Assembly (NCBI GenBank): GCA_029941115.1
Contig: JAPYRK010000006.1
Coordinates: 6,821 to 70,820 of the forward strand
Direction: 5' to 3'
Origin: Dehalococcoidia bacterium
Lineage (GTDB): Bacteria; Chloroflexota; Dehalococcoidia; UBA2979
DNA length: 64,000 bases
Under the pieces are notes generated by a model. The model saw nothing but the letters and a program-made list of their open reading frames with translations. It was not told where the DNA came from and did not search any database. Both the position numbers and the translations under genes were made by a program. Every line of letters begins with the position of its first letter. Positions within the stretch are counted from its first letter, which is position 1. Positions 15,718 through 31,528 of this stretch are shown here, piece after piece.

Positions 15718-15728
15718 AGAGCAAAATA

Positions 15729-16544
15729 CTATCTGAAAATATCACCGGCTGCACTTATACCAATAATAATTAGTCCAATTGCGAGAGCTCGCATCAGGCT
15801 TCCTTCACCAGTTCGCTGTCGGAGCTTTATGGCGATTGGTGCTGCGATGAAGAGGCCAGTTGCGAGCCAGGGAATATCGTTGAGTGGTGAGCCACCCACG
15901 TTATTAAGGAAATGGATACCTGTGACGCTAAGAGACTGTATGAGTATTAATAAATGCATACTGGGTACCGCTATATTGTGCGGTACTCGCTGTACGCGAG
16001 TCATGACAGGTATACCGATTGGGCCGCCCCCGATACCAGCTAGGGCTGACAAAAATGCAGTTCCGACTTGTGCGACTCCAGATCGAATGATAGGAATAGA
16101 GTAGGAATAGAGATTTCCTTGTCTATCTTTAATTTTTCTAGGCCAACCGTCACTGGGCATGAAATCTTCAACCGTCGTTGGTCGGAAAATTATATAGATA
16201 CCGATTAAAACCAAGAACATTCCGAACGCGAACGAAAAATAGATACGGTCGATTAATCCTGTAGTCAGACCTCCAAGAATGGCGGCTGGTACTCCTATCA
16301 CCGCGAGCAAGAGAATGAGTTTTCCGTCAATTCTTCGGTCTCGAATCGTGAGTAGGACTTGGATAGCCGAGTTAATTATCACATAAATTAATGTAGCGGC
16401 GGTAATCTCAGTCGGAGTGGCGGCGGGATGTCGCAGTAGCAGGATGGGGGCTATCAAGAATCCCCCACCTGCACCGATGGCTCCGGCATAAATTCCTATT
16501 ACCGCGCCCAACACTATGAGCAAAATAGGATCGCTGAATTCCAT
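15729..16544 (-). CDS. sulfite exporter TauE/SafE family membrane protein
   Basis: 271 aa with two halves of four TM each and the glycine-rich GAGGG motifs of the TauE/SafE family. Confidence 0.75.
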   Translation of the reverse strand: MEFSDPILLIVLGAVIGIYAGAIGAGGGFLIAPILLLRHPAATPTEITAATLIYVIINSAIQVLLTIRDRRIDGKLILLLAVIGVPAAILGGLTTGLIDRIYFSFAFGMFLVLIGIYIIFRPTTVEDFMPSDGWPRKIKDRQGNLYSYSIPIIRSGVAQVGTAFLSALAGIGGGPIGIPVMTRVQRVPHNIAVPSMHLLILIQSLSVTGIHFLNNVGGSPLNDIPWLATGLFIAAPIAIKLRQRTGEGSLMRALAIGLIIIGISAAGDIFR

Positions 16545-16565
16545 CAGTAAACTGATGGGTTCTTA

Positions 16566-17927
16566 TTATTGGGCAGAGCGAAGAAATTCTGGCAAAAGAT
16601 GATCTGGATATCTGTCTCCTACATGACCTTGCTCGAGTAACTCTTTATATTCTAGGTCACTATAGCCAAGCAATTCCTTATATATCTCCTCACTATGCTC
16701 GCCGAGCCTTGGGGGAGGTGTACGCAGCGTGTTTGGTGTGTTGATCCATTTAGTCATTATTCCGGGATAGCGATAGTTTCCGATTACGGGCGAGTCTAGT
16801 TCTTCAAAAAAGCCGCGATCGATGAGCTGCGGTGAATTAAGGAGTTCAACGTCGTCAGTGACTGGACCAGCGCAAACTCCGGCTCGTTGCAGTTGCTCAA
16901 ATAGTTCGTACTTGTCAATATCGATTGTGTATTTTGTAAGCTCTTCGTGTAGGGCGTCACGATTCTTGAATCGTGATAACTGCGTTGTGAATTTTTCGTT
17001 TTCCTTTAGCAAGTCGGCATCGAGTACGTCGCACAGTGTCCGCCATTCGCTATCTTCTGACACGTCTATCGCAATCCACTGGTCCACACCGAGGGTAGGA
17101 AAGACTCCATGCGGAGCGTGGGAATGATGAGTATTTCCTTGTGGCCCTGCCACTCGTTGATTCATTTCGAAGTCAAGAATAAATTCGCCTAGATTGGGTA
17201 GAAATCCCTCCGCTAGTGGCATTTCTATCTGCTGACCTTGACCTGTTATGTCCCGAAAACGCAGCGCAGCAGTGATTACGGTAGCACCAAGTATGCCGGC
17301 AAAAGCATCTGCGGTGAATGCCTCCCCGGTCTGATCCGGAGTCCCGTCGGGATAGCCGCGTAGGTAGTGGTGGCCAATCATTGCTTCAACATGTGTACCA
17401 AATGCGCGATAACCTTTGTACGGGCCGGACAGGCCATATGCCGGCATTCGAAGCATAATGAGTCGTGGGTTTATTTCTTTTAGCGTATCGTAGGTGATAC
17501 CTGCTTTTTCTATAGTTGTGGGAACATTGTTTTCAACGAGCACATCGACTTCTTTTATAAGTTTTAGGAAAGCTTGTTTACCTTCACTCGTCATGATGTT
17601 GCATGCCATCGATTTCTTGTTTCGGCTATGTGAATTAAATCCAGGGTTCCTGTTCCAAGGTTCATCACCGGGGTCGAAGTCAGGATATGCACTTAGTGTG
17701 ATTCCATTATTCGCCATTTCAATGAGTTGCTCCCGAGGGGCAATGCGTTCAGCTCCTCTTGAATAGGGCTGAATTGCATCTACTGGTTCCACTCGAATAA
17801 CCTCTGCTCCCCATTCGGCGAGAACTTGAGTGCAGTGCGGGCCCGCCCAAACTACCGTGATCGCTGCAACTCTAACCCCATCTAATGGTAGATCAGGCCT
17901 AGTTGAAGTCTCTTGTTTAGTTGCCAT
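16566..17927 (-). CDS. CoA-transferase family III (CaiB/BaiF)
   Basis: N-terminal LDGVRV..ITVVWAGP, central conserved Asp region and the overall ~450 aa architecture. Confidence 0.85.
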   Translation of the reverse strand: MATKQETSTRPDLPLDGVRVAAITVVWAGPHCTQVLAEWGAEVIRVEPVDAIQPYSRGAERIAPREQLIEMANNGITLSAYPDFDPGDEPWNRNPGFNSHSRNKKSMACNIMTSEGKQAFLKLIKEVDVLVENNVPTTIEKAGITYDTLKEINPRLIMLRMPAYGLSGPYKGYRAFGTHVEAMIGHHYLRGYPDGTPDQTGEAFTADAFAGILGATVITAALRFRDITGQGQQIEMPLAEGFLPNLGEFILDFEMNQRVAGPQGNTHHSHAPHGVFPTLGVDQWIAIDVSEDSEWRTLCDVLDADLLKENEKFTTQLSRFKNRDALHEELTKYTIDIDKYELFEQLQRAGVCAGPVTDDVELLNSPQLIDRGFFEELDSPVIGNYRYPGIMTKWINTPNTLRTPPPRLGEHSEEIYKELLGYSDLEYKELLEQGHVGDRYPDHLLPEFLRSAQ

Positions 17928-17940
17928 AATTAGTTAACCC

Positions 17941-19149
17941 TTAAATCACTTTTGTCCGACGTAATTGAACTATGTCGGAATCGGTGTAACCCATATCCGA
18001 AAGAACGCTAACGGTATGCTCGCCTAGTAACGGAGCGCGTTTCATTTGTTTTCGAGTCGCGCCCGAAGTGACAAAATGGCGTCCAGGGTAGCGGATACTG
18101 CCTGTTTCAGGATGCTCGACTTCCTCCCAGACGTTTCTCTCTTGATAGTGTGGGTCATTGAGGAGATCTTCCACGGTCAGTATTGCTCCACCCAGAATTC
18201 CAATGGATTGCGTAGCTGCTACAGCTTCTCGTTTTGTCCGTTCGATTAGCCAAATGGCATATGACGCTTCCATTTCTTCAATGAATGTCGTCGACATTTG
18301 CATGAACGGTTTTTTTGCATCAGGTTGTTCCGCTAAATCTTCGCGACCAATAAGTCGCAGAAATTCAGGGACATGCTTGCTGGGTCCAGCCATTATATTG
18401 GCGTATCCGTCTTGTGCCGGACGTGGCCCAGAGGCAACTCTACCTAATGATCCACCGCGCTTATTGCTCCTCCCTGTATAGGATGCAGATGTGAGGCCGG
18501 GAGCTCTTCTGTCGCGAAATCCAGCTTGAGCCTCATAGACAGACTGATCAATATGATCACCGGATCCACCGCGCTCGACTCGTAAACGAGCTAGCACGCA
18601 CGCATATGTGAGCGACAATCCGGCATGATAATGTGCTAGATTTCCTCCAAGCTTGATGGGTTCCTTGGCTGGGTCACCATTCATATGCAGTGGACCGGCC
18701 ATTGCTTGAAGAACCAGCTCAGATCCTTTGAAATCTCTCCAAGGTCCAGTTTGTCCGAACGGAGTAAGCGATCCCAGTACTAGATCTGTTCGATTCGAAG
18801 TAAGTACCTTGTACCCCAAACCAAGTGACTCGAGGGTTCCGGGATTGAAATTTTCAATCACTATGTCATGGGAGTCGATCAGGGAGCGAATTATATCTTT
18901 TCCGTTCGGTTTAGCTAGATCACACGTGATCGATCGCTTGTTAGTGTTTAAATGCAAAAAAAGAGCTGAAGTTTCTTTGTTTGGAATGTCGTTTAGAAAA
19001 GGACCTTCTGCACGCGAAGGATCCCCGTCTGGTGGTTCAACCTTGAGGACATCGGCGCCGTAATCGGCGAAGAGCTTCCCTGAGTATGGAACACCAACCA
19101 TCGTACCCAGTTCGAGTACCCTTATGCCTTCAAATAGTTGCCTAGTCAT
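17941..19149 (-). CDS. CoA-transferase family III (CaiB/BaiF)
   Basis: FEGIRVLELGTMVGVPYSGKLFADYGADVLKVEPP is the canonical family III N-terminus. It lies adjacent to a paralogue. Confidence 0.85.
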   Translation of the reverse strand: MTRQLFEGIRVLELGTMVGVPYSGKLFADYGADVLKVEPPDGDPSRAEGPFLNDIPNKETSALFLHLNTNKRSITCDLAKPNGKDIIRSLIDSHDIVIENFNPGTLESLGLGYKVLTSNRTDLVLGSLTPFGQTGPWRDFKGSELVLQAMAGPLHMNGDPAKEPIKLGGNLAHYHAGLSLTYACVLARLRVERGGSGDHIDQSVYEAQAGFRDRRAPGLTSASYTGRSNKRGGSLGRVASGPRPAQDGYANIMAGPSKHVPEFLRLIGREDLAEQPDAKKPFMQMSTTFIEEMEASYAIWLIERTKREAVAATQSIGILGGAILTVEDLLNDPHYQERNVWEEVEHPETGSIRYPGRHFVTSGATRKQMKRAPLLGEHTVSVLSDMGYTDSDIVQLRRTKVI

Positions 19150-19189: not shown

Positions 19190-20122
19190 TTAATAGCCCT
19201 TGAAGTCTGGAGCTCGCCGCTCAACAAATGAGCGAAAACCTTCTTTCGCATCACTCGTTTTTAGTAATCCCGCCTGAGCATTCCATTCATGTATCAGCCA
19301 TTGTTCCGCAGATCCTGATGTATCTAATGACGAATGCAAGAGGCGTCGAATCTCTGCTGCCGCGAGTGGTGGACCAGCCGCAACTCTCCGCGCATAGTCG
19401 ATGGCCTCTGATAGGAGGTCCTCGTCTTCAACAACCCTGTTTACTAGGCCAAGTTCAAGCAATTTATCATATGGCATTACATCACTGTGATACATAACTT
19501 CGAAAGCCCGAGCTGATCCGACTACTCGAGGAAGAAACCAGAGCACACCATAATCTGAGACGATTCCGCGTTTGAAAAAAATTGGTCCCATTCGCGCTGA
19601 TTTCCCCGCGATCCGAACGTCACACGCCATTGCCATGCCAAATCCAGCGCCTGCTGTCGCTCCGTTGATAGCACCGATTATCGGGACATCAGATTTAATG
19701 AAACTTAACGCTGTTGAGACTGATCTGTTGTGATGTGGCAGGCGTTCGTGTCGTGGAAGGCTGGGAACAGCGTCACTTGACTCTTGGCTTGAATCTGCCG
19801 GTGTACGATCAGGTGTGATTTCGGCTCCTGCACAGAAGGCACGACCACTCCCCGTTAGTACCATAGCTCTGACTGAATCTTCTTTTGAAGCGAACGCTAA
19901 TGCGGCTCCCAGACCTTGTCCAAGGGTTGCATTGAGCGAGTTCATTTGCTCAGGGCGGTTGAATGTCGTAACGAGCACTCCTTCATCATCGAGTTCCGCA
20001 ATAACGTCACCTTTTGAGATATCTTGGATACTGTCTATTATTTTGCTCATGAGCTCCCTCGTAAAGTGTCTTATAGTTGACCGGTCTTTATGTTGTGAGA
20101 GTGTAGCCTGTCTGGGCGGCAT
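19190..20122 (-). CDS. enoyl-CoA hydratase/isomerase (crotonase) family protein with low-complexity insertion
   Basis: AFCAGAEI ... GAINGATAGAGFGMAMACDVRIAG oxyanion-hole segments. An insert of about 45 aa rich in Ser/Pro lies between them. Confidence 0.8.
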   Translation of the reverse strand: MPPRQATLSQHKDRSTIRHFTRELMSKIIDSIQDISKGDVIAELDDEGVLVTTFNRPEQMNSLNATLGQGLGAALAFASKEDSVRAMVLTGSGRAFCAGAEITPDRTPADSSQESSDAVPSLPRHERLPHHNRSVSTALSFIKSDVPIIGAINGATAGAGFGMAMACDVRIAGKSARMGPIFFKRGIVSDYGVLWFLPRVVGSARAFEVMYHSDVMPYDKLLELGLVNRVVEDEDLLSEAIDYARRVAAGPPLAAAEIRRLLHSSLDTSGSAEQWLIHEWNAQAGLLKTSDAKEGFRSFVERRAPDFKGY

Positions 20123-20200
20123 CCGTGAGTGCCTGATGTTCTAAAGAATGGGAATAGTTGCTTTTTCTTATTTTTAAGGCCATGCTAGTCAATTATTGGA

Positions 20201-23200
20201 GTGATTATGAAACTTGGTAAATTACTTGTGGCTAATCGAGGTGAAATAGCAGTTCGAATTATTCGAGCTGCTTCTGAGCTGGATATAGAGACTTGCTCGA
20301 TATATTCTGAGGCAGACATTAATTCAATCCATTGGCGAAGAGCCGATGAGGCATTCTTACTTCAGGGCTCGGGTGCTCAGCCGTATTTAGACATAGAGCA
20401 AATCGTACAGGTGGCTACTGATGCTGGATGTGCCGCGGTCCATCCGGGTTATGGCTTTCTTAGCGAAAATCCTGAGTTTGCTATCAAGTGTGAATCCGCT
20501 GGGATAAAGTTTGTCGGTCCAGAATCTTCCTCACTAAACGTTTTTGGTGACAAAGTATTGGCGAGACAAGTCGCGATGCAGCACGGAATACCGGTTGTAC
20601 CTGGACTTGACCATCCGGTAACGGTCACTGAGGCAATGGAATTTCTGGGATCTTTGGAAGAGGGTCAGTCAGCGATTCTCAAGGCTGTGCATGGCGGAGG
20701 TGGGCGTGGAGTTCGTGTACTCGAAAAGGATAGTGATGTTGGACAGGCGTACCGAGAGGCACAGACTGAGGCTGAATCGTCCTTTGGGAGTGCAGATCTC
20801 TACATCGAAAGATACCTACCCAATGTTCGCCATATTGAAGTGCAAATAGCCGGTGACTCAACTGGCGCGATCTCACATTTTTGGGAGCGCGATTGTTCCA
20901 TACAGAGGCGTCACCAGAAAATTATTGAGATAGCTCCTGCCCCGTTTTTGGATGAAGCCGTTAGGGATGCATTACTGGCGGCGGCGGTAACAATCGGAGA
21001 GGCCGCAAATTACGAAAATCTAGGCACCGTGGAGTTTTTGGTATCGGCAAGCCAGACAGAATCGAGCGAATTCTTTTTCATTGAGGTAAATCCAAGACTG
21101 CAGGTAGAACACACAGTAACTGAAGAAGTCACAGGTATTGATTTGGTACAAACACAATTGCGAATTGCTTCAGGTGAGAGTCTTGCATCACTTGGTCTTT
21201 TACAGGGATCGATTGCGCCAGCCCAAGGTTACGCGATTCAGGCAAGAGTAAATATGGAGAAAATCAAGGAAGACGCCACCGTGGTTCCGTCAACGGGAAC
21301 TCTATCAGTGTTCGCTCCGCCATCAGGTCTTGGTGTACGGACGGACACTTTTGGTTACAGCGGTTACCAGACTAGTACAAGTTTCGATTCACTTCTGGCA
21401 AAAGTAATTGGGTATTCCAGTTCTCGTGAATTTGCTCCTGCGGTCGCACGGGTTGAAAATGCGCTGGCCGAGTTTGATGTCAAAGGTGTGGATACCAATA
21501 TATCTTTCTTGAGAGCCATTCTTGGTCATCAATCGTTTCGGAATGGAGAAGTGTACACACGTTTTGTTGATTCAGAGGCCGGTGGACTCAACCAGCTTGC
21601 CAAAGAAATAGGCGACAGTGTTTTATTGGGCTTTGCCGAACCGAACGAACAGGCTGGGGCGACGATCGATTCTAACGACCCTTTGGCGGTACTAGATTAT
21701 GGAATACAAGCGATTCGGAGTGCGGAGACACAGTCTTCTCCAGAGCTAGGTGGACAATCCGATGCCCCTGGATCAGTAAGGTCACCTCTGCAGGGTACTG
21801 TCGTATCTATTGAAGTCTCGGTTGGCGAGAAAGTACAAGCCGGACAACTACTAGCGGTAATGGAATCAATGAAAATGCAGCATGAGATTAAAGCTCATTT
21901 AAGTGGTTCGGTCAGTGTTATTAGTGTTAGTTCAGGCGACACTCTTTGGGAGAATCACACGCTGATGATCATCGAAGCACATGAAGTCTCTGGGTCTGTT
22001 ATTGAAGGTGACAATTCAGTCGATTTAGAGTTCATTCGTCCTGATCTCGAGGAAATTTTGGTACGCCGTGCCGCGACCCTGGATGAGAATCGAGAAGAGG
22101 CGGTGTCCAAGCGCCATTCTCGGAATCTGAGGACAGTTCAGGAGAATGTAGAGGATTTGTTCGATACAGGAACTTTTTTGGAGTACGGACCTCTAGTTCT
22201 AGCAAACCAGTTCTCGCGTCGTAGCTTGAATGAATTAATTGAAAAGACACCAAGAGACGGGATGATTACCGGTATGGGGAGTGTGAACGGAGATCTGTTT
22301 TCTGGTCCTGAAAGTATGGTCGCAACAATTGCATATGATTATATGGTTTTGGCCGGTACGCAAGGGAACAGAAATCATCAAAAAACCGATCGAATGATTG
22401 AAGTAGCACGAAACTCACAACTACCCTTGGTATTGTTTGCAGAAGGCGGTGGCGGTCGGCCCGGAGACGATGGGCTTCATGCAGCTGGAGGTAGCTCAAC
22501 GTTTGCTTCTTTTTCAACCCTAAGTGGCCTGGTCCCTATGGTCGGAATTACGGCAGGCCGTTGTTTTGCCGGCAATGCTTCATTACTTGCTTGTTGTGAC
22601 GTAATTATCGCCACGGAAGGATCAAATATTGGGATGGGAGGACCGGCAATGATCGAAGGTGGTGGCCTAGGTATTTTTGCTCCTGAAGATATTGGTCCGA
22701 TGGAAATACAGATACCCAACGGCGTCGTAGATATATCGGTTAAAGACGAAGCAGAAGCCGTTCAAGTTACTAAGAAATACCTGTCTTACTTCCAGGGGTC
22801 AGTGGATACATGGGAGGCTCCTGATCAGCGTGAAATGAGGCAGATTGTCCCTGAAAATAGATTGCGAGTCTATAACGTTCGAGACGTGATTAATACGCTG
22901 GCTGACGTTGACTCCATACTTGAGATTCGGCCTGAGTTTGGAATTGGAATTGTCACTGTATTGGTCCGTGTGGAGGGCAGGAGTTTGGGTGTTATTGCTA
23001 ACAATCCTGGTCATTTGGGCGGTGCTATTGACTCAGATGGTGCTGACAAAGCCGCTCGGTTTATGCAGCTTTGTGACGCGTTCGATCTGCCGTTGCTCAC
23101 TCTAGTTGACACCCCTGGCATCATGGTTGGCCCTGAGGTGGAAAAAACCGCTTTAGTGCGTCACGCTAATCGGCTATTTCTGCATGGCGCCAATATTGAA

Positions 23201-23584
23201 ACGACTTTCATGTCAATTATTTTACGAAAGGCATATGGACTGGGCGCAATAGCCATGACAGGCGGTAATTATCGCCAACCACAGTTCACCGTGTCTTGGC
23301 CGACGGGGGAGTTTGGCGGAATGGGCCTGGAGGGTTCAGTGAAGCTTGGGTATCGTGATGAACTTGCGTCCATTGCGGACCCAGAAGAGCGATTAGAAAA
23401 ATATGAAGCGATGGTGGCTCGGGCATATGAGCGTGGTAAAGCTTTGAATACGGGAATGAACTTCGGTTTTGATGACACGATTGATCCCGCGGAATCGAGG
23501 GCGTGGATTGCGGGAACGCTTAAGGCAGCAAAATTACCTCCAATAAGATCTGGAAAAAAACGTCCGTTTATCGATGCCTGGTAG
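20201..23584 (+). CDS. single-chain multidomain acyl-CoA carboxylase (biotin carboxylase - BCCP - carboxyltransferase fusion, LCC-type)
   Basis: An N-terminal ATP-grasp biotin carboxylase (GYGFLSEN, EVNPRLQVEH), a biotinyl domain with the SMKM biotinylation motif (about residue 545), and a C-terminal AccD/PccB-like carboxyltransferase, all in one 1127 aa ORF. Confidence 0.85.
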   Translation: MIMKLGKLLVANRGEIAVRIIRAASELDIETCSIYSEADINSIHWRRADEAFLLQGSGAQPYLDIEQIVQVATDAGCAAVHPGYGFLSENPEFAIKCESAGIKFVGPESSSLNVFGDKVLARQVAMQHGIPVVPGLDHPVTVTEAMEFLGSLEEGQSAILKAVHGGGGRGVRVLEKDSDVGQAYREAQTEAESSFGSADLYIERYLPNVRHIEVQIAGDSTGAISHFWERDCSIQRRHQKIIEIAPAPFLDEAVRDALLAAAVTIGEAANYENLGTVEFLVSASQTESSEFFFIEVNPRLQVEHTVTEEVTGIDLVQTQLRIASGESLASLGLLQGSIAPAQGYAIQARVNMEKIKEDATVVPSTGTLSVFAPPSGLGVRTDTFGYSGYQTSTSFDSLLAKVIGYSSSREFAPAVARVENALAEFDVKGVDTNISFLRAILGHQSFRNGEVYTRFVDSEAGGLNQLAKEIGDSVLLGFAEPNEQAGATIDSNDPLAVLDYGIQAIRSAETQSSPELGGQSDAPGSVRSPLQGTVVSIEVSVGEKVQAGQLLAVMESMKMQHEIKAHLSGSVSVISVSSGDTLWENHTLMIIEAHEVSGSVIEGDNSVDLEFIRPDLEEILVRRAATLDENREEAVSKRHSRNLRTVQENVEDLFDTGTFLEYGPLVLANQFSRRSLNELIEKTPRDGMITGMGSVNGDLFSGPESMVATIAYDYMVLAGTQGNRNHQKTDRMIEVARNSQLPLVLFAEGGGGRPGDDGLHAAGGSSTFASFSTLSGLVPMVGITAGRCFAGNASLLACCDVIIATEGSNIGMGGPAMIEGGGLGIFAPEDIGPMEIQIPNGVVDISVKDEAEAVQVTKKYLSYFQGSVDTWEAPDQREMRQIVPENRLRVYNVRDVINTLADVDSILEIRPEFGIGIVTVLVRVEGRSLGVIANNPGHLGGAIDSDGADKAARFMQLCDAFDLPLLTLVDTPGIMVGPEVEKTALVRHANRLFLHGANIETTFMSIILRKAYGLGAIAMTGGNYRQPQFTVSWPTGEFGGMGLEGSVKLGYRDELASIADPEERLEKYEAMVARAYERGKALNTGMNFGFDDTIDPAESRAWIAGTLKAAKLPPIRSGKKRPFIDAW

Positions 23585-23592
23585 GTAGAAGT

Positions 23593-24252
23593 TCAGCTCA
23601 GCCTTAAATCCAAAGGTGATGCAGCTTTTCGTTTTAGAGCGGAAACGAGATCGATAACCGTTTTGATCTCGGTCGAAAATATGGTTGCTGCTCTTCCGAC
23701 CGCCTGAACTGAATGAGCATCTGACCCTCCGACCGCGACCACACCTAATTCCTTAGCTAGTCTCACATAGTAGCCATCATCACTGTCGGAATGATCGCCG
23801 TTGACCGCTTCGATACCCGTGAACCAATTTTGTATTTCTTCACTAGAGGGTCTGCGTAGAGTTCCTGTTGAACGCATGGGATGTGCGACGATTAAAGCTG
23901 CACCTTCTTCTTCGGCACTCTTAATTAAGTGATCTATCATTAATAATTGGGGACGATATCGAGAGAAACCGTAGGCAAGAATATGCCCGAAGTTAGTTCC
24001 TAACTCGATAGCCGGAAGGACATTGATCTGGAAAATTTCACTGAGTCGCTTTGTGTCTTCCTCGGGCCAAAGTGCATTGTGTTCGGTCAGGCAAATTCCA
24101 TCTAGTCCTCGAGCAGCCGCTTGGCCTACGAGTTTCTCGACGCTCACTCCACTATCGAGTGATTTGTCTGAACTATGGGCATGCATCTCAAAGACAGAAC
24201 CACCCTCGGGCCGATATTGTCTCGGGAATTCCAGTCGGATATCTAAGCTCAC
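23593..24252 (-). CDS. PHP domain (histidinol-phosphatase-like) metal-dependent phosphoesterase
   Basis: MHAHSSDKS, LTEHNA and AHPMR are the His motifs of the PHP fold; 219 aa. Confidence 0.7.
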   Translation of the reverse strand: MSLDIRLEFPRQYRPEGGSVFEMHAHSSDKSLDSGVSVEKLVGQAAARGLDGICLTEHNALWPEEDTKRLSEIFQINVLPAIELGTNFGHILAYGFSRYRPQLLMIDHLIKSAEEEGAALIVAHPMRSTGTLRRPSSEEIQNWFTGIEAVNGDHSDSDDGYYVRLAKELGVVAVGGSDAHSVQAVGRAATIFSTEIKTVIDLVSALKRKAASPLDLRLS

Positions 24253-24298: not shown

Positions 24299-25270
24299 CT
24301 AGCGTAGAAGCTCAATGAGTTCAGGCAATACAGCTAGGCAATCATCGATGATACCTACATCGGCATATTTAAAAATTGGAGCATCTGGATCAGAATTAAT
24401 TGCCACAATTAGACGGGCATTGGAGCATCCCGCCATGTGTTGACTAGCTCCCGAAATGCCTGCCGCAACATAGAGTGCGGGAGCAACAGTGGTGCCGGTT
24501 AGTCCGATTTGTTCTGTGGGTGGTGCCCAGTATTCGTCAACGATCGCTCGAGAGGCTCCGGGCATCCCCTTTAATAGGTTTGCCAATTCTCTCACAAGTG
24601 CAAAATTTTCAGCGTTTTGTAAACCTCGACCACCAGACACAACTATCTCCGCATTTTCAAGACGAGGTCCTTCATCAGCTGTTGCCTCAGTGATGACCCG
24701 CACCCTGTCCGCCAAGAGTTCAAGATTGAGTTCTACTATGTCTGAGGAGTTTTCCGGGTGAGGCGTCGGGGCTTCAGCTGCAGCTGGTCGCAAACCAACG
24801 ACTACAGGCGAAGTAGAATCGATTTGGTAGAGTGCTCTGGCAGCACCTCCATACACGGCTGCCTCAATTTCGGTATATTGCTCGTTTATTGTTTCAATCC
24901 TTGTCACGTTCATTACACAGGTACCGTCTATCCGTCTCGACAATCTAGGGATAAATTCAAGTGTTGATGGATGTCTGCCGATGAGCACTATGCGTGCCCC
25001 TGAGCTGGAAACAATGTGAGCAGCAGCCGAAACCATATTGTCCCCCGAAAAGCGAGCGAGCAACGAATCTTCGATTGTGTAGACCTTTGTCGCACCAAGC
25101 TCAGTAACTTCTGCGGTTGCGGACGAGTTATCTGCACCGATGAGCCCGCATTCCACTGGGCGTCCGGTATTTTCTGACAAATTCTGAGCGAAACCTAAGG
25201 CTTCGCGAGCGCCTATATTGATTTGTGAAGTCTCATCAATATGTGCCAGCACAAGAATGGGATCAGACAT
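24299..25270 (-). CDS. etfA: electron transfer flavoprotein subunit alpha
   Basis: The FAD-binding C-terminal domain (GISGASQHMAG, AINSDPDAPIF) and its position downstream of etfB. Confidence 0.9.
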   Translation of the reverse strand: MSDPILVLAHIDETSQINIGAREALGFAQNLSENTGRPVECGLIGADNSSATAEVTELGATKVYTIEDSLLARFSGDNMVSAAAHIVSSSGARIVLIGRHPSTLEFIPRLSRRIDGTCVMNVTRIETINEQYTEIEAAVYGGAARALYQIDSTSPVVVGLRPAAAEAPTPHPENSSDIVELNLELLADRVRVITEATADEGPRLENAEIVVSGGRGLQNAENFALVRELANLLKGMPGASRAIVDEYWAPPTEQIGLTGTTVAPALYVAAGISGASQHMAGCSNARLIVAINSDPDAPIFKYADVGIIDDCLAVLPELIELLR

Positions 25271-26078
25271 TTAAGTCACCTCGTTCTCTAAGGATCTGCA
25301 GTAAATGTTTCGCCTTTTCCTTCGGGTCAACACCTTCAATTATTTCGCAGTTTCCCTGCACTTCTGGAACCGTTAAGAGTTTGATGCTCATTTTTTCAGT
25401 AGCTGGACCTGGCAGCAGTTCGTCGGCTCGAAAAACGGTAGGGGGATTACGACGGGACTGAATCATGCGCCGGCTACTTGGATACCGTGGCTGCCCAATC
25501 TCATTACTAACAGCTACTACCGCTGGCAGATTGCATGCCAGTGTTTCCGGCCCGTTTGGAGTCACAACGTCAACATGCAATGATTGTGTTTGTTCGTCAA
25601 AATTTATCTGAGACGCCATGGTGATGAACGGCATTCCGAGATCCTCAGACAAGATCGCCGGGACGGCACCTTGGTCGTAGTCAGAACCCTGCCGACCGCA
25701 CAAAATTAGATCGACATCTCCTAGATTCTTGGCGACAGTGGCAAGTATCTGAGAAATTCGAAACGGATTACCTGATTGTTTTTCGTCATCATGCACGTGA
25801 ATGGTATTTTCAGCTCCCATTGCGTAGCATCGCTTTAGTACATCGGGGGCCGTATCTGAACCAACCGTGACTGCTGTCACACGAGTACCCTCTTGGACCT
25901 CAGCAATCTGTAAGGCAGCCTCCATCGCCTGTTCGTCATAGGCATTAATAATTTGTGGCACGGTCGCTCCAGTATTAAACCCTAGCCCGTCTTCACTAAC
26001 TTCTAAACGCCCCCATAACGCATAACTGTTAATACCGTCAGGATCCAACACTTGCTTTGCTGCCACAAGAATATGCAT
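25263..26078 (-). CDS. etfB: electron transfer flavoprotein subunit beta
   Basis: MHILVAAKQVLD start and the AMP-binding fold. It overlaps etfA by 8 nt, the usual operon arrangement. Confidence 0.9.
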   Translation of the reverse strand: MHILVAAKQVLDPDGINSYALWGRLEVSEDGLGFNTGATVPQIINAYDEQAMEAALQIAEVQEGTRVTAVTVGSDTAPDVLKRCYAMGAENTIHVHDDEKQSGNPFRISQILATVAKNLGDVDLILCGRQGSDYDQGAVPAILSEDLGMPFITMASQINFDEQTQSLHVDVVTPNGPETLACNLPAVVAVSNEIGQPRYPSSRRMIQSRRNPPTVFRADELLPGPATEKMSIKLLTVPEVQGNCEIIEGVDPKEKAKHLLQILRERGDLNV

Positions 26079-26102: not shown

Positions 26103-26384
26103 TTAGTCAAAAGAATAGACGTAGGATTCCTCACACCAAACGAATTCATCCTTAAAATCATCTGGTTTGACTGACAACTGACCTATTTCTAACCAGTACC
26201 ACGGGGGATCCCCCTGAACAATTTTTCGTCCAGTTAAAACTCCCTCGAAGGCAGCACGTGACGCAAAATTGGTGTTCCCAACTTGGGCGCCACCATCCGC
26301 CTCGACGCGTCTACCAACGAGTTCGGAATCGAGCGTGATCTGCATCGATCCCTTTGGTTGCCCCGACTCTATCTTTTCACTCAT
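26103..26384 (-). CDS. hypothetical protein (93 aa) between the NMO and etfB genes
   Basis: The ORF is in operon context but has no recognisable motif. Confidence 0.3.
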   Translation of the reverse strand: MSEKIESGQPKGSMQITLDSELVGRRVEADGGAQVGNTNFASRAAFEGVLTGRKIVQGDPPWYWLEIGQLSVKPDDFKDEFVWCEESYVYSFD

Positions 26385-26404: not shown

Positions 26405-27523
26405 TTACGCTGTAGCTGAGTTTTCAGTGGCACGCTCGAAGAGCTCAAGCGCTTCGTCGGCCATTTCATACACGACCTCGGCCGCGGGTTTGATTGCATC
26501 AATGCCAACGATTGCCTGACCAGCTGGTGTAGTCATCCAATCTTCGAGATTCGCTTCCTTAATGTCGCGGAGTACATCGTTGACGAGCATACCTTGAAGT
26601 GGCATAGGGAGAGTATCGGGGGCCCCGTCCTCTTTCCAAATATCCGACCATCTTGAACGGAGCTGTCGTATTGGTTTTCCGGACATAGCACGCGACTGTA
26701 CGGCGTCTTCAACCTTGGAGTCTATTATTCGTTGTTTTAGGAACATGGCGGTTTCTGATTCATGGGTAGCGAGCCAGATGGTACCGGTCCAAACCCCTGC
26801 TGATCCCATCGCGATCGAGGCTGCGAGATGCTTGCCACTCGATACCCCGCCTGCAGTTAGAACTAACGTATCCGTACCTTCGGCCATTCTCACGATTTCC
26901 GGCACGAGAGTAAAGGTGCCTACCGTTCCACTATGTCCACCAGAGTCATAGCCCTGAGCTACTACAACGTCGACGCCTGCTTCGATCTGTCTACGGGCTT
27001 GTCGCGGAAGTCCTACGAGTCCCCAGACCTTCATTCCCTCTTGATGAGCCCGTTCAATAATGAACGCGGGGCTGCCTAGCCCGGACGCGAATATAGGTAC
27101 TTTTTCCTCAAATAATATATCGAGCTGCTGGCGTGATCGCTCTAGTAGATTTTCGTAACCAGAGTAAGTAGGGTCAATATCACTTGGTGGAGGAGAATCA
27201 GGAGCACCAGAAACGGACTTAACGTGCTGCACAAATGTTCGATGTTCGTCTGGGATCATTTCGTCTAGATCTTCGCGATTTCCCTCAACAAATGAGGCTG
27301 GGACTAGCAAATCCACACCGAAGGGCTTATCACCAATTTTGTCCCGGATCCAGCGGATATCGGACCGTAGTTCATCTGGTTTAAGTCCGGTTGCACCAAG
27401 TATTCCGATCCCGCCTGCGTTCGAAACAGCGGCGATTACGTCTTTAGTATGAGCAAATGCGACCACCGGAATTTCACATCCATATTCTTCGCAAAGCTTT
27501 GTGTTTAGCGGGTTTCCATCCAT
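26405..27523 (-). CDS. nitronate monooxygenase / 2-nitropropane dioxygenase family (FMN-dependent, FabK-like)
   Basis: GGIGILGA FMN-binding motif, TIM-barrel pattern, 372 aa. Confidence 0.8.
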   Translation of the reverse strand: MDGNPLNTKLCEEYGCEIPVVAFAHTKDVIAAVSNAGGIGILGATGLKPDELRSDIRWIRDKIGDKPFGVDLLVPASFVEGNREDLDEMIPDEHRTFVQHVKSVSGAPDSPPPSDIDPTYSGYENLLERSRQQLDILFEEKVPIFASGLGSPAFIIERAHQEGMKVWGLVGLPRQARRQIEAGVDVVVAQGYDSGGHSGTVGTFTLVPEIVRMAEGTDTLVLTAGGVSSGKHLAASIAMGSAGVWTGTIWLATHESETAMFLKQRIIDSKVEDAVQSRAMSGKPIRQLRSRWSDIWKEDGAPDTLPMPLQGMLVNDVLRDIKEANLEDWMTTPAGQAIVGIDAIKPAAEVVYEMADEALELFERATENSATA

Positions 27524-27558: not shown

Positions 27559-28365
27559 CTAAACCAGTACTGCTGGTGTTAGGGCGAACTCTTCAATCAT
27601 TTCATCTGCGTATGCTATTCGACCTGACAGCTTGCCACCTTCATCATGTACTAGTCTGAGGCAGGCTTCAGCCATGTTTTCGACCGGCACTACTCGATCT
27701 TTATTTGATTCATTCACCAATCCATGGTGCAGAACTCCAGGAGTTGCGACGAGGCCTGGTGAGATCGCATTTACTCTGATATTTTGATCGGCGACTTCAG
27801 ATGCAAGACCGGTAGACAGCCTTTCTAGTGCTGCTTTACACATTCCGTAAACGGTACCGCCGGATGCTGGCCCCCCAACTTCTGGATGTAGAGCTGCGTG
27901 GGACGAAATATTAAGTATCCAACCACTTCCCGTTTCACGCATATTTTCCATAGCGAGTTGAGCCAGATGCAGTGGGCCGTGGACCTGCACCTCAAACATG
28001 AGTTTTTGACGTTTTTCTGGAAATTCTGAGATAGGTATGAAGTAAGTTACGGCCGCATTGTTGACTACAATATCAACGCTTCCAAAAAGCGCCTTCGTGG
28101 TCTCAATAAGCTGCACTCGATCTTCGGCCAGTGCCATATCGCATCTAACTGCGGCCGCTTCACCGCCCGCATCATTAATCCGCTTCACGACGGAATTCAT
28201 GCTTCCGGCTAAGATATGATCTCCGTCATCAACGGTTCGTGCCGAGACGACCACTTTAGCGCCTTCCATTGCGTATCGAATAGCAATTGCTTCTCCAATA
28301 CCGCGTGATGCCCCAGTGATAATTGCGACCTTGCCGGCCAATAATCCATTTTTGTTAATTGACAT
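27559..28365 (-). CDS. SDR family oxidoreductase
   Basis: ITGASRGIGEAIA and NNAA; 268 aa. Confidence 0.85.
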   Translation of the reverse strand: MSINKNGLLAGKVAIITGASRGIGEAIAIRYAMEGAKVVVSARTVDDGDHILAGSMNSVVKRINDAGGEAAAVRCDMALAEDRVQLIETTKALFGSVDIVVNNAAVTYFIPISEFPEKRQKLMFEVQVHGPLHLAQLAMENMRETGSGWILNISSHAALHPEVGGPASGGTVYGMCKAALERLSTGLASEVADQNIRVNAISPGLVATPGVLHHGLVNESNKDRVVPVENMAEACLRLVHDEGGKLSGRIAYADEMIEEFALTPAVLV

Positions 28366-28413: not shown

Positions 28414-29661
28414 TCAGATGATTCCATTACTTCGAAACGCTATTACTTTTCTTTCGTCATATCCTAATAGATCGATTAATATTTCATCATTATCAGCGCC
28501 GGTACTTGGTGTTGGGCCAGTTATTTCACCCTGTCCTTTTTCAAGTTTCCATATCACTCCTCGATAGAGCGAATCAAGAGAGAAATTGTTGTCGGTCACG
28601 GTGAGACTAGTTCGGTGCAGACTATTGAGATTCTCATCATTGACTAGATCCAGTGTCCCCATGACCGGGTATGCTGGAATTTTTGACTTTTGGAGAGTTT
28701 TTGTTAGTTGCATAGCTGTGTAATCCTTGGTCCATGATTCAATGGTCTCGTCTAATTCATCTTGATTATCGAGTCGACCCTGTAACGTCTTGAACTTAGG
28801 GTTTGTTATATCCTCTGATTTTTGCGCTGCCAGATCTTTAAACGTCTCCCATTCTTCTTGATTTCGAACTGAGATCGATATCCATTCATCGAGCCCTGAT
28901 GTTTTGTAGTAACCGTGTGGTGCTGTCGCTGGGTATCTATTGCCTTGCGGACCTGCAACTCGGCCGTTTAAAAAGTAATCCATCAATGGTTCAGCTATTC
29001 GTTGAATGCAGGCTTCTCCTTGGGCTATATCAATGTGTTGGCCTCGCCCGGTCGTGTCCCGAGATTCAAGCGCCGCAAGTATCGCAAAAAACGCATGACC
29101 TGCCGCGGTAGGATCCAAATCCGCTTGGTCTTCTTGAGGATGGTCAGAATCGTGGTACCCAAGGACACTCTTTATTCCATAGAGCGCTGCCAGGGAGGGA
29201 CCGTAGGTGACGAGATCTCTCCACGGGCCATCGGTTGCTCCTGTAGCTGAAAGCGAGGCCAATATTATCTTCGGATTAATTCTCGTAAGAACATCAAAAC
29301 CGAGACCCAACGAAGGCATTACTCGGGCTGAAAAGTTTTCGACTACTACGTCGCTGACTGCGATGAGTTTTTTATATATTTCTTTGCCATCTTCTGACTG
29401 TAGATCCAGACTTAAGCTTTTCTTACCTCGATCGAATGCGTGATATGCCATTGGGTCAGAGATATCGACTGCATCCCGAGTGGCTGTGCCGGCCATTCCT
29501 TTGCCTGCCATTGACACTCCTGATCCACCCGTGGGGGATTGTATTTTTATAACTTCCGCGCCCATATCTTTAAAACTCATTCCCAGAAGCGGTCCAGCCC
29601 AGACGTGGCCGTGATCTATTACTCGTATTCCGCTGAGCGGACCATTGGTTGTTGCAGTCAT
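28414..29661 (-). CDS. CoA-transferase family III (CaiB/BaiF)
   Basis: Family III N-terminus (GIRVIDHGHVWAGP); 415 aa. Its start overlaps the stop of the upstream paralogue as TAATG. Confidence 0.85.
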   Translation of the reverse strand: MTATTNGPLSGIRVIDHGHVWAGPLLGMSFKDMGAEVIKIQSPTGGSGVSMAGKGMAGTATRDAVDISDPMAYHAFDRGKKSLSLDLQSEDGKEIYKKLIAVSDVVVENFSARVMPSLGLGFDVLTRINPKIILASLSATGATDGPWRDLVTYGPSLAALYGIKSVLGYHDSDHPQEDQADLDPTAAGHAFFAILAALESRDTTGRGQHIDIAQGEACIQRIAEPLMDYFLNGRVAGPQGNRYPATAPHGYYKTSGLDEWISISVRNQEEWETFKDLAAQKSEDITNPKFKTLQGRLDNQDELDETIESWTKDYTAMQLTKTLQKSKIPAYPVMGTLDLVNDENLNSLHRTSLTVTDNNFSLDSLYRGVIWKLEKGQGEITGPTPSTGADNDEILIDLLGYDERKVIAFRSNGII

Positions 29662-31495: not shown

Positions 31496-31528
31496 ATTTT
31501 GTTGAAGCATATTATTCAATGTTAGAGC

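What the first reader, a model, noticed from the sequence alone, without database searches (positions are those of the whole stretch)
20201..23584. Single-polypeptide BC-BCCP-CT acyl-CoA carboxylase divergently paired with enoyl-CoA hydratase and tandem CoA-transferases
Biotin carboxylase, biotin carrier (SMKM) and carboxyltransferase are fused in one 1127 aa chain in BC-BCCP-CT order. This architecture has been described for the long-chain acyl-CoA carboxylase (LCC) of Mycobacterium avium subsp. paratuberculosis and is uncommon in bacteria. It shares a 78 bp divergent promoter region (20123..20200) with a crotonase and two CaiB/BaiF genes. This suggests a dedicated activate, hydrate and carboxylate route for an unidentified organic acid.
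Basis: partly seen in the sequence, partly recalled or inferred. Interest (0 to 1): 0.6.

Follow-up and report, generated by a model that had tools for sequence, protein, structure and literature searches.

The report
Single-chain acyl-CoA carboxylase, LCC family
This is a real, intact one-polypeptide biotin carboxylase of the known "long-chain acyl-CoA carboxylase" family in a marine Chloroflexota genome; the family is common, its natural substrate is still unknown, and the neighbouring "hydratase" is probably not a hydratase.

Summary
The ORF is real. It most likely starts at ATG 20207, giving 1125 aa, with the domain order BC, BCCP (SMKM, Lys556), CT.

It belongs to the single-chain LCC family. 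The best solved relative is M. avium LCC (4RCN, E=0). The CT domain alone scores 627 bits (56% identity) against 4RCN, versus 219 bits for the best propionyl-CoA carboxylase beta subunit. All catalytic motifs are invariant across 121 homologues, so it is not a frameshift artefact.

The architecture is not rare. A scan found at least 586 loci across many phyla, and 54 of the 150 best 50%-identity cluster representatives are at least 1000 aa long.

Corrections to the finding:
- The divergent spacer is 156 bp, not 78 bp.
- The crotonase lacks both hydratase glutamates and keeps the PaaG isomerase aspartate.
- Each tandem CaiB pair is a BbsEF-like two-subunit CoA-transferase, not two separate enzymes.

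The pairing of the crotonase, CaiB pair and carboxylase is kept only in relatives at 84% identity or more. Orthologous CaiB-pair operons, with or without the crotonase, occur elsewhere without the carboxylase.

Across the family, the carboxylase gene recurrently sits beside an acid-activating enzyme. This is a class III CoA-transferase pair or an AMP-forming ligase, often with a transporter. "Import, activate, carboxylate" is therefore plausible. "Hydrate" is not supported, and the substrate is unknown. Verdict: a new member of a known kind, of modest interest.

The parts
20207..23584 (+). Single-chain LCC-family acyl-CoA carboxylase, 1125 aa (mechanical ORF start is GTG 20201)
20216..21571 (+). 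Biotin carboxylase (ATP-grasp) domain, residues 4-455. GGGGRG loop, K238, and E/N/R/Q/V/E of NPRLQVEH are all present.
   Evidence: Pfam. Motifs are invariant in 121 homologues.
21776..21973 (+). Biotin carboxyl carrier domain, residues 524-589. SMKM motif; biotinyl-Lys556 is codon 21872-21874.
22112..23527 (+). Carboxyltransferase domain, residues 636-1107, of the LCC clade
   Evidence: 627 bits to 4RCN and 575 to 5FIF, versus 219 for the best PCC beta subunit. 56% identity to 4RCN.
20051..20206 (.). 156-bp divergent intergenic region. Contains a 17-nt block (20091-20107) conserved in the 90% and 84% relatives.
19190..20050 (-). PaaG-like crotonase, 286 aa. Gly138 and Phe158 replace the hydratase glutamates; Asp166 is the PaaG proton-relay Asp.
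17941..19149 (-). Class III CoA-transferase A-type subunit (like BbsEF chain A). His173 replaces the catalytic Asp.
16566..17927 (-). Class III CoA-transferase B-type subunit (like BbsEF chain B). Catalytic Asp207 is kept.
15729..16544 (-). TauE/SafE-family anion permease, co-oriented 21 bp after the transferase pair. This gene order is conserved in other Dehalococcoidia.
23593..24252 (-). PHP-family metallohydrolase, convergent with the carboxylase and 8 bp from its stop codon. Gene callers in relatives start it later (197 aa).
24299..26078 (-). Electron-transfer flavoprotein alpha (24299-25270) and beta (25263-26078)
26103..26384 (-). Conserved 93-aa ORF with no recorded Pfam family in relatives; not scanned directly here
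26405..27523 (-). NMO-family FMN protein. Its best solved relatives are FabK enoyl reductases.
27559..28365 (-). Short-chain dehydrogenase/reductase
28414..30911 (-). Second BbsEF-like CoA-transferase pair. CaiB_d is A-type (29661-30911, Asp188 kept). CaiB_c is B-type (28414-29661, Asp183). The two ORFs overlap by 1 nt.

Best explanation
Gene 20207-23584 encodes a functional single-chain biotin-dependent acyl-CoA carboxylase of the LCC family.

Inferred from homology, not shown here: the BC domain uses ATP and bicarbonate to carboxylate biotin on Lys556. The BCCP domain carries carboxybiotin to the CT domain. The CT domain transfers CO2 to the alpha-carbon of an acyl-CoA, giving a 2-carboxyacyl-CoA. 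By analogy with 4RCN the enzyme probably assembles as a domain-swapped homohexamer.

The host is a marine Chloroflexota (Dehalococcoidia, SAR202-like) bacterium. The gene is its own transcription unit between two minus-strand catabolic operons:
1. PaaG-like crotonase, an A+B class III CoA-transferase, and a TauE permease.
2. A second A+B CoA-transferase, SDR, a FabK-like flavoprotein, orf93, ETF beta and alpha, and PHP.

Most likely role: it carboxylates the CoA ester of an imported carboxylic acid that was activated by CoA transfer. The acid is unidentified, and hydration is not part of the conserved logic.
For: Family and integrity:
- Pfam architecture.
- 4RCN at E=0 over the full length.
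- CT domain scores 627 bits (56% identity) to 4RCN versus 219 bits to the best PCC beta subunit.
- All BC, BCCP and CT motifs are invariant in 121 homologues.
- Collinear full-length homologues.

Host:
- GroEL is 95-97% identical to marine metagenome proteins, 90% to 'Chloroflexota bacterium' and 77% to Dehalococcoidia.
- The window also carries three luciferase-like monooxygenases and an F420H2 quinone reductase.

Coupling to acid activation:
- In 80 genome loci, CaiB ORFs fall off with distance from the LCC gene: 0.59, 0.15, 0.05 and 0 per 10 kb.
- CoA_transf_3 is the commonest immediate neighbour, 9 of 125.
- These CaiB-linked loci sit at nine or more separate positions of the CT tree.
- The neighbours are always an A half or subunit without the catalytic Asp plus a B half or subunit with it, either fused or in tandem. 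BbsEF chain A likewise has Tyr at that position.
- In annotated genomes, an AMP-binding ligase is adjacent in five genera and in the same gene row in Paracoccus. A 757-aa CoA transferase is divergent in Haematobacter.
- TetR regulators and TRAP, ABC or MFS transporters are frequent in those loci.

The local cluster is conserved in the 90% and 84% relatives.
Against: - No experiment and no substrate assignment were possible.
- Neighbours of LCC homologues are very heterogeneous overall: 85 and 79 Pfam families among 63 and 62 neighbours. About 80% of loci show no adjacent activating enzyme.
- Synteny with the window is lost at 61-63% identity.
- The CaiB_A-CaiB_B-transporter operon, with or without the crotonase, exists without an adjacent LCC gene in L097-L100 at 56-65% identity. 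The transferase next door therefore does not need this carboxylase.
- SAR202-type genomes carry many CaiB, crotonase and SDR paralogues (PMC5395668), so chance adjacency in this genome is not negligible.
- The hexameric state and chain-length preference are extrapolated from 4RCN.
Confidence: 0.65

Rival explanations
1. It is a general-purpose acetyl-, propionyl- or acyl-CoA carboxylase. It would supply malonyl- or methylmalonyl-CoA, or feed propionyl-CoA assimilation. Its position among CoA-transferase, crotonase and SDR genes is incidental in a genome crowded with such paralogues.
For: - It is a monocistronic + strand gene between minus-strand operons.
- Neighbours of homologues are heterogeneous.
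- Synteny holds only at 84% identity or more.
- The CaiB operon, with or without the crotonase, occurs without an LCC gene elsewhere.
- The characterised LCC accepts C2 to C16 acyl-CoAs, according to PMC6491548 citing Tran 2015.
- SAR202 genomes are rich in CaiB paralogues.
Against: - The steep distance decay of CaiB genes around LCC genes uses the same genomes as their own background.
- Fused or tandem A+B transferases recur at nine or more separate tree positions.
- Ligase-carboxylase operons exist in cultured bacteria.
- L084 and L085 carry separate multi-subunit carboxylase genes right next to an LCC homologue, which suggests distinct roles.
Confidence: 0.25
2. A dedicated route would have two CoA-transferases activate an acid, an enoyl-CoA hydratase hydrate it, and the carboxylase carboxylate it, all controlled from a shared 78-bp divergent promoter.
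For: - The physical arrangement is as described.
- The arrangement is conserved in close relatives.
Against: - The crotonase lacks both hydratase glutamates and matches PaaG isomerase.
- The two CaiB genes are subunits of one enzyme, one of them without the catalytic Asp.
- The spacer is 156 bp.
- The crotonase shows no distance enrichment around LCC genes.
- The crotonase-transferase operon occurs without an LCC gene in L100.
Confidence: 0.07
3. The enzyme works physiologically in reverse. It would remove CO2 from alkylmalonyl- or other dicarboxyl-CoA esters produced by the dicarboxylate-type CoA-transferases.
For: - Class III transferases of this type act on dicarboxylates. The nearest NCBIfam models are succinate-glutarate and succinyl-CoA:mesaconate transferases.
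- The CT domain is related to methylmalonyl-CoA decarboxylase alpha (TIGR01117, 235 bits, below its cutoff).
Against: - A complete BC domain with every ATP-grasp and bicarbonate residue invariant would be pointless for a decarboxylase.
- Known biotin decarboxylases lack a BC domain (established knowledge).
Confidence: 0.03

Closest known systems
Long-chain acyl-CoA carboxylase of Mycobacterium avium subsp. paratuberculosis (PDB 4RCN; Tran et al. 2015)
   Same: - A single chain of about 1100 aa with BC-BCCP-CT order.
- Full-length match at E=0.
- CT domain 56% identical.
- Same catalytic motifs.
   Different: - The host is a marine Chloroflexota bacterium.
- Hexameric assembly and long-chain preference are untested here.
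- The residue at the position equivalent to PccB Asp422 (numbering recalled from memory) is Ile1015 here and Met in 4RCN.
- The gene neighbourhood is unrelated as far as known.
Deinococcus radiodurans single-chain carboxylase (PDB 5FIF for the CT domain, 5H80 for the BC domain)
   Same: Same family. The CT domain scores 575 bits and the BC domain 437 bits.
   Different: In Deinococcus the gene is translationally coupled to an AMP-forming acyl-CoA synthetase of NCBIfam type PRK06178. Here the nearby activating enzymes are class III CoA-transferases.
Multi-subunit propionyl-, acetyl-, methylcrotonyl- and geranyl-CoA carboxylases
   Same: Same BC, BCCP and CT chemistry and folds.
   Different: - Those enzymes have separate alpha and beta subunits with a BT domain.
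- Their CT domains score only 219 bits or less (PCC), 127 (GCC) and 116 (MCC).
- Here only about 68 residues separate the BC and BCCP domains.
[quoted passage not shown]
   Same: - Two paralogous class III subunits are encoded in tandem.
- CaiB_b and CaiB_c match chain B best. CaiB_a and CaiB_d match chain A as a close second, behind 4ED9 and SUGCT 9BR7 respectively.
- The A subunit lacks the catalytic Asp: Tyr in 9FN0_A, His173 in CaiB_a.
   Different: - The scores are only moderate: 130-175 bits.
- The host is an aerobic marine organism with no bss or bbs context, so the substrate is certainly different.
- CaiB_d keeps the Asp.
PaaG, 1,2-epoxyphenylacetyl-CoA / delta3,delta2-enoyl-CoA isomerase (Thermus thermophilus, PDB 6SLB and 3HRX), compared with the neighbouring crotonase
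   Same: - It is the best solved match at 141 bits.
- Both proteins lack the two hydratase glutamates.
- The LVPDSG Asp136 proton relay aligns with IVSDYG Asp166. Entry 6SLA carries Asn at this Asp position.
   Different: - There are no paa genes nearby.
- The crotonase carries extra residues at about 78-110 relative to PaaG.
- It scores below every NCBIfam cutoff.
DddD, DMSP CoA-transferase/lyase (two fused CaiB domains)
   Same: The fused two-domain proteins of 757-877 aa found next to LCC genes in other phyla share DddD's two-CaiB-domain layout.
   Different: Orthology was not tested because no DddD sequence was available. No NCBIfam equivalog was reached. In the window the two halves are separate genes.

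Membership tests
Single-chain LCC family (4RCN type) | One polypeptide of about 1050-1200 aa with BC, then BCCP, then CT | tested here: met
   Pfam domains in that order within 1125 aa. Collinear with homologues.
Single-chain LCC family (4RCN type) | CT domain closer to LCC CT than to PCC, ACC, MCC or GCC beta subunits | tested here: met
   627 bits (4RCN) and 575 bits (5FIF), versus at most 219 (PCC), 127 (GCC) and 116 (MCC)
Single-chain LCC family (4RCN type) | Intact biotinylation motif and BC and CT catalytic motifs | tested here: met
   SMKM Lys556, GGGGRG, K238, NPRLQVEH, EGGGGRPGD, DTPGIMVGP and RKAYGLGA are all present and invariant or near-invariant in 121 sequences
Single-chain LCC family (4RCN type) | Domain-swapped homohexamer | not testable with these tools
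   Only monomer prediction is offered. Not attempted.
Single-chain LCC family (4RCN type) | Activity on C2-C16 acyl-CoAs with a preference for long chains | not testable with these tools
   Needs enzymology. This property is known only from the literature (PMC6491548 citing Tran 2015).
Pyruvate carboxylase | BC plus a TIM-barrel (HMGL-like) carboxyltransferase, PT domain and C-terminal BCCP | tested here: not met
   NCBIfam PC models match only residues 3-458 plus the BCCP domain. The scores of 610 and 551 bits fall below the cutoffs of 965 and 1114. Pfam reports no HMGL or PYC_OADA domain.
Urea carboxylase | BC plus allophanate-hydrolase-like carboxyltransferase domains | tested here: not met
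   TIGR02712 scores 474 bits against a cutoff of 1304. The best stretch is the BC domain only.
Eukaryote-like / actinobacterial homodimeric ACC (SACE_4237 type) | About 200 kDa chain with an ACC central domain | tested here: not met
   The protein is 1125 aa and Pfam finds no central domain. The contrast with the SACE_4237 type is described in PMC6491548.
Enoyl-CoA hydratase (crotonase hydratases), for gene 19190-20050 | Two catalytic glutamates (rat ECHS1 Glu144 and Glu164) | tested here: not met
   Gly138 and Phe158 align to those positions. The same gap is seen against T. thermophilus PaaG.
PaaG-like crotonase isomerases, for gene 19190-20050 | Proton-relay Asp (D136) in the (L/I)V(P/S)D motif, with no hydratase glutamates | tested here: met
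   Asp166 aligns with the PaaG Asp. Entry 6SLA carries Asn at this position. The role of D136 is taken from PMC9493321. The activity itself was not tested.
BbsEF-type heteromeric class III CoA-transferase, for genes 16566-19149 and 28414-30911 | Two paralogous subunits encoded in tandem, one A-like and one B-like | tested here: met
   - CaiB_b and CaiB_c match 9FN0 chain B best. CaiB_a and CaiB_d match chain A as a close second.
- A-B fusions occur in other genomes.
- One relative of CaiB_b is named 'BbsF subunit' by JGI.
BbsEF-type heteromeric class III CoA-transferase, for genes 16566-19149 and 28414-30911 | Catalytic Asp present only in one subunit | tested here: inconclusive
   Pair 1 meets it: His173 in the A subunit, Asp207 in the B subunit. 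In pair 2 both subunits keep the Asp (Asp188 and Asp183). The chain B residue of 9FN0 was not seen directly.
BbsEF-type heteromeric class III CoA-transferase, for genes 16566-19149 and 28414-30911 | Succinyl-CoA:benzylsuccinate specificity | not testable with these tools
   Unlikely, given moderate scores (130-175 bits) and no bss or bbs context

The most novel reading that the evidence does not exclude
LCC-type carboxylases may form a recurrent two-enzyme module with a BbsEF/DddD-like class III CoA-transferase that has one inactive and one active half. The carboxylase product, a 2-carboxyacyl-CoA, is a dicarboxylate mono-thioester, which is the substrate class of these transferases. It could serve as the CoA donor for the next acid molecule. 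The pair would then carry out an ATP-driven net carboxylation of free, possibly alicyclic or branched, marine carboxylic acids using catalytic amounts of CoA. This would give the orphan LCC family its first physiological role and fit the proposed degradation of recalcitrant carboxyl-rich organic matter by SAR202.
Probability: 0.12. Interest if true: 0.55.

Novelty: new member of a known kind. Interest (0 to 1): 0.3.

Why it matters
The gene itself is an ordinary member of a structurally characterised family. Databases label such genes only as "carboxyl transferase domain-containing protein" and sometimes mislabel them "pyruvate carboxylase" (row H9).

What is still open is the physiological substrate of the whole family. 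This analysis shows three things:
1. The family is large and phylogenetically broad.
2. Its only recurrent genomic partners are acid-activating enzymes: A+B class III CoA-transferases or two types of AMP-forming ligase. Transporters and TetR regulators are also frequent.
3. Tractable organisms carry such operons, including Deinococcus radiodurans, Rhodococcus opacus PD630 and Tistrella mobilis.

The substrate question is therefore directly testable in those organisms. For this window, the main value is in correcting the annotation. The "hydratase" is an isomerase-type crotonase, and the "two transferases" are one heteromeric enzyme.

Tried and rejected
- **Frameshift-merged two-gene artefact:** rejected.
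- **Pyruvate or urea carboxylase:** rejected. These models match only the BC (and BCCP) domains and score below their cutoffs.
- **Tran et al. 2015 (PMC4319993):** not held. LCC properties are therefore taken second-hand from PMC6491548. One literature search returned nothing useful.
- **Shared operator:** the conserved 17-nt block at 20091-20107 has no second copy in the window, for example upstream of the second operon. The promoter and terminator scans were not above the shuffled expectation.
- **Substrate hints from NCBIfam:** the CaiB proteins, the fused transferases and the ligases gave only generic or below-cutoff matches. The exception is the uninformative PRK06178 "acyl-CoA synthetase".
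- **A third conserved gene in CaiB-linked LCC loci:** none was found.
- **DddD orthology of the fused transferases:** could not be tested because no DddD sequence was available. Only the two-CaiB-domain layout is taken from the literature.
- **Steroid-ring analogy (IpdC, EchA20) for the FabK-like protein, crotonase and SDR:** the paper consulted does not state IpdC's family. This stays a lead from memory only.
- **Cupriavidus metallidurans record:** it has no usable annotation.
- **Source species:** not among the GTDB species representatives. The best CT identity was 73%.
- **Structure prediction:** not run, because 56% identity to a solved structure made it unnecessary.

Full report
**1. Observation**

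The window holds one uninterrupted ORF at 20201..23584 on the + strand. The mechanical start is GTG 20201. ATG 20207 lies 7 nt after a GGAG and reproduces the MKLGKLLVANRGE N-terminus of the 95% and 90% identical homologues. The product is therefore most likely 1125 aa.

Pfam finds these domains, in this order:
- Biotin_carb_N, residues 4-109
- CPSase_L_D2, residues 115-327
- Biotin_carb_C, residues 345-455
- Biotin_lipoyl, residues 524-589
- Carboxyl_trans, residues 636-1107

All have E-values between 5e-15 and 1.6e-70. The biotin motif is SMKM at residues 554-557, and Lys556 is codon 21872-21874.

**2. Not an artefact, and which family**

The best solved relative is the M. avium subsp. paratuberculosis long-chain acyl-CoA carboxylase, 4RCN (1093 aa, E=0, 1017 bits). 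Next is the CT domain of the Deinococcus radiodurans single-chain carboxylase, 5FIF.

With the CT domain alone, 4RCN scores 627 bits (56% identity over 501 columns) and 5FIF scores 575. The best propionyl-CoA carboxylase beta subunit scores 219, geranyl-CoA carboxylase 127 and methylcrotonyl-CoA carboxylase 116.

All 120 listed homologues are 1101-1169 aa with 99-100% query coverage. A 53%-identical representative aligns 5-1125 to 3-1120 in a single stretch. In an alignment of 121 sequences, the following are invariant or nearly so:
- the ATP-grasp glycine loop
- Lys238
- NPRLQVEH
- Arg347 (aligned with E. coli BC Arg338, numbering from memory)
- the MKM lysine
- the CT motifs EGGGGRPGD, GRCFAGNA, DTPGIMVGP, RKAYGLGA and WPTGE

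Serine before MKM is the majority state in this family (S 69, A 52). The pyruvate and urea carboxylase models of NCBIfam match only the BC domain (plus a second short stretch) and stay far below their cutoffs. One GenBank record does call a homologue "pyruvate carboxylase" (row H9).

**3. How common is the architecture?**

The claim that it is uncommon does not hold.
Of these, 586 were confirmed as relatives. The 80 best come from Chloroflexota, Binatota, Acidobacteriota, Actinomycetota, Myxococcota, Alpha- and Gammaproteobacteria, Desulfobacterota and others.
- In 72 of those loci the whole enzyme is one ORF scoring above 1000 bits.
- In a library clustered at 50% identity, 54 of the 150 best representatives are at least 1000 aa, at 35-56% identity.
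- Cultured carriers include Pseudomonas aeruginosa, Cupriavidus, Rhodococcus opacus, Deinococcus, Tistrella, Paracoccus and Pseudosulfitobacter.

**4. Host**

The window's GroEL is 95-97% identical to marine metagenome proteins (one from Tara), 90% to "Chloroflexota bacterium" and 77% to Dehalococcoidia. The window also has three luciferase-like monooxygenases, an F420H2-dependent quinone reductase, an aldo/keto reductase and an MFS transporter. This is the gene repertoire described for SAR202 (PMC5395668). The species is not among the GTDB representatives carrying this gene; the best CT identity was 73%.

**5. The neighbours, re-read**

(a) Crotonase and spacer. The crotonase start conserved in the 90% and 84% relatives is ATG 20050, with a conserved GAGG Shine-Dalgarno. 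Beyond it the 84% relative diverges. The protein is 286 aa and the spacer is 20051-20206, or 156 bp.

(b) The crotonase is not a canonical hydratase. Its best solved relatives are Thermus thermophilus PaaG entries (141 bits). The PaaG proton-relay Asp (LVPDSG) aligns with Asp166 (IVSDYG), and entry 6SLA of the same series carries Asn at that Asp position. The roles of PaaG and D136 are described in PMC9493321. The gene is therefore better described as a PaaG-like, isomerase-type crotonase.

(c) The "tandem CoA-transferases" are one enzyme.
- CaiB_b (16566-17927) and CaiB_c (28414-29661) match chain B of benzylsuccinate CoA-transferase 9FN0 best. CaiB_a (17941-19149) and CaiB_d (29661-30911) match chain A as a close second, behind 4ED9 and SUGCT 9BR7 respectively.
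- CaiB_a has His173 where YfdW, SUGCT and 4ED9 have the catalytic Asp. 9FN0 chain A has Tyr there.
- CaiB_b, CaiB_c and CaiB_d keep the Asp.
- BbsEF as the CoA-transferase of the benzylsuccinate pathway is described in PMC10818641. Its two-subunit composition is seen in the two distinct 9FN0 chains.

(d) The NMO-family protein is closest to FabK FMN enoyl reductases.

Gene spacing indicates two tight minus-strand operons:
- crotonase, CaiB_a, CaiB_b, TauE and PepP, with gaps of 40, 13, 21 and 11 bp
- CaiB_d, CaiB_c, SDR, NMO, orf93, ETF beta, ETF alpha and PHP, with gaps and overlaps of -1, 48, 35, 20, 24, -8 and 112 bp

The carboxylase is a single + strand gene between them. It ends 8 bp from the PHP gene.

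**6. Is the pairing conserved?**

From the carboxylase side:
- The whole cluster is syntenic in the 90% and 84% relatives (L001 and L083).
- It is absent around homologues at 61-63% identity (L002, L084-L086).
- Among 125 immediate neighbours of 72 homologues there are 85 and 79 different Pfam families. The commonest is CoA_transf_3 (9), then SDR (6) and luciferase-like monooxygenase (4). ECH_1 occurs only twice.
- I used each locus as its own background. CaiB-like ORFs per 10 kb fall from 0.59 (0-1.5 kb from the carboxylase) to 0.15, 0.05 and 0 at greater distances. Crotonase is flat at 0.23, 0.09, 0.16 and 0.09.
- The CaiB neighbours are always a pair. They are either tandem genes or a fused protein of roughly 770-880 aa. 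The N-terminal or first unit is A-type and the second is B-type. Every B unit keeps the Asp. Every A unit outside the window lineage has lost it, carrying C, Q, F, M or S.
- These loci lie at nine or more separate positions of a CT-domain tree.
- Nothing else is conserved in them.

From the transferase side:
- Orthologues of CaiB_b at 62-65% identity in other Dehalococcoidia sit in a conserved backbone. It runs AhpC-like, then divergently CaiB_A, CaiB_B, TauE, PepP, an S11 peptidase (absent in L099) and a class II RNR. It lies next to SRP54, S16 and RimM, and has neither crotonase nor carboxylase.
- In L100 the crotonase (56% identical, same catalytic substitutions), CaiB_A (57%, same AHYHAG His) and CaiB_B form one operon with a Na/sulfate-citrate-type symporter. 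There is again no carboxylase.

The CaiB pair plus anion transporter, with or without the crotonase, is therefore an older module that works without an adjacent carboxylase. The juxtaposition in the window is lineage-specific.

**7. Family-level context in annotated genomes**

| Organism | Arrangement |
|---|---|
| Deinococcus radiodurans | AMP-binding ligase overlaps the start of the carboxylase gene; TetR divergent |
| Tistrella mobilis | ligase, carboxylase, ABC substrate-binding protein, TetR |
| Rhodococcus opacus PD630 | CaiB, ligase, carboxylase, TetR |
| Pseudosulfitobacter | TetR, then divergently carboxylase, ligase, TRAP transporter |
| Acuticoccus | ligase, carboxylase |
| Paracoccus jeotgali | ligase, ABC transporter, carboxylase |
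| Haematobacter | 757-aa CoA transferase divergent from the carboxylase |
| Pseudomonas aeruginosa | only a LysR regulator |

The ligases are of two NCBIfam types: PRK06178 (above its cutoff) and PRK06155-like. In the 80 genome loci, two more ligases are immediate neighbours (L073 and L081).

The recurrent logic of the family is therefore: take up an acid, make its CoA ester, carboxylate it. It does not support the specific crotonase-hydration step.

**8. Mechanism**

Shown here:
- domain content
- conservation of catalytic residues
- family placement
- gene order and its conservation

Inferred from homology:
- ATP- and bicarbonate-dependent carboxylation of biotin on Lys556
- swinging-domain transfer to the CT domain
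- alpha-carboxylation of an acyl-CoA
- a likely hexameric assembly

Inferred from context, with about even odds: the substrate is the CoA ester of an imported carboxylic acid activated by one of the flanking A+B CoA-transferases. The carboxylase product would be a dicarboxylate mono-thioester, which is the substrate class of BbsEF-, SUGCT- and Frc-type transferases. This gives a chemical reason for the recurrent pairing.

The acid is unknown. The FabK-like flavoprotein, SDR, ETF and PaaG-like crotonase suggest beta-oxidation-like processing of an unsaturated, branched or alicyclic acyl-CoA. That would be consistent with what has been proposed for SAR202, but it is speculation.

**9. Verdict**

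This is a correct observation of a genuine LCC-family enzyme. It is a new member of a known and widespread kind. It is partly wrong on rarity, spacer length, hydration, the two separate transferases and the dedicated conserved route. Interest is modest.

The most useful by-product is the partner pattern of A+B CoA-transferases or ligases, because it makes the orphan family's substrate testable in culturable bacteria.

Noticed in passing
window 31031-31510 (minus strand); TGA at 31385-31387: An AhpC/TSA-like redoxin gene has an in-frame TGA exactly at the first Cys of its redox motif (FYRGHW-TGA-PFC). This could be a selenocysteine codon (UxxC) or a nonsense mutation. In the 90% relative L001 the same gene is decayed (WSSFC, an extra stop and a deletion). 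The hairpin after the TGA is weak (z = -0.95), and the window has no tRNA-Sec.
   Followed up: partly
window 14404-19149 compared with L097, L098, L099: The block CaiB_A, CaiB_B, TauE, Xaa-Pro aminopeptidase and class II RNR is a conserved backbone in Dehalococcoidia, next to SRP54, S16, KhpA and RimM. In the window the RNR gene is inverted, and the segment 19190-30911 (about 11.7 kb: crotonase, carboxylase, PHP, ETF, orf93, NMO, SDR and a second CaiB pair) has no counterpart in those relatives. It looks like a lineage-specific insertion.
   Followed up: partly
window 20091-20107: A 17-nt block (TGTTGTGAGAGTGTAGC) in the divergent spacer stays conserved in the 84% relative, where the surrounding spacer has diverged. 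It may be an operator or promoter element. The window has no second copy.
   Followed up: partly
window 26103-26384 (minus strand): A 93-aa ORF lies between ETF beta and the FabK-like gene. It is called at the same place in the 90% and 84% relatives and has no recorded Pfam family there.
   Followed up: no
window 29661: The stop of CaiB_d and the start of CaiB_c share one nucleotide. ETF alpha and beta overlap by 8 nt. This suggests translational coupling, consistent with two-subunit enzymes.
   Followed up: no
window 6790-7698, 35663-36976, 37205-38527, 35098-35526: Three luciferase-like flavin monooxygenases and an F420H2-dependent quinone reductase lie in the window. This paralogue-rich oxidative repertoire is typical of SAR202.
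   Followed up: no
window 10853-14407: The class II (B12) ribonucleotide reductase is 1184 aa. Its barrel domain is matched in two stretches, and it has a C-terminal TSCPD domain. The length and the split match might indicate an insertion. This was not examined.
   Followed up: no
L084 8566-13395 and L085 11564-15855: In a 61% homologue's contig, the single-chain carboxylase is convergent with a complete multi-subunit carboxylase set: BC, two CT genes and a small BCCP. A thiamine-diphosphate enzyme is divergent from it. The two carboxylase systems therefore coexist side by side.
   Followed up: no
L094 5977-7551; proteins P0300, P0318, P0320, P0342: Unfused relatives exist. There is a CT-only gene (525 aa) on a Mycobacterium sp. 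JS623 plasmid among toxin-antitoxin and IS genes. Several BCCP-CT proteins of about 590-620 aa appear in the representative library. They may be split variants or fragments.
   Followed up: no
L083 14103-15074: In the 84% relative the ETF alpha gene is called as two pieces (204 aa and 56 aa). This suggests a frameshift, pseudogenisation or an assembly error in that contig.
   Followed up: no
L086 9110-9883: One 61% homologue is divergently paired with an HpcH/HpaI-family (citrate-lyase-beta / malyl-CoA-lyase-like) gene. This was a single case.
   Followed up: no
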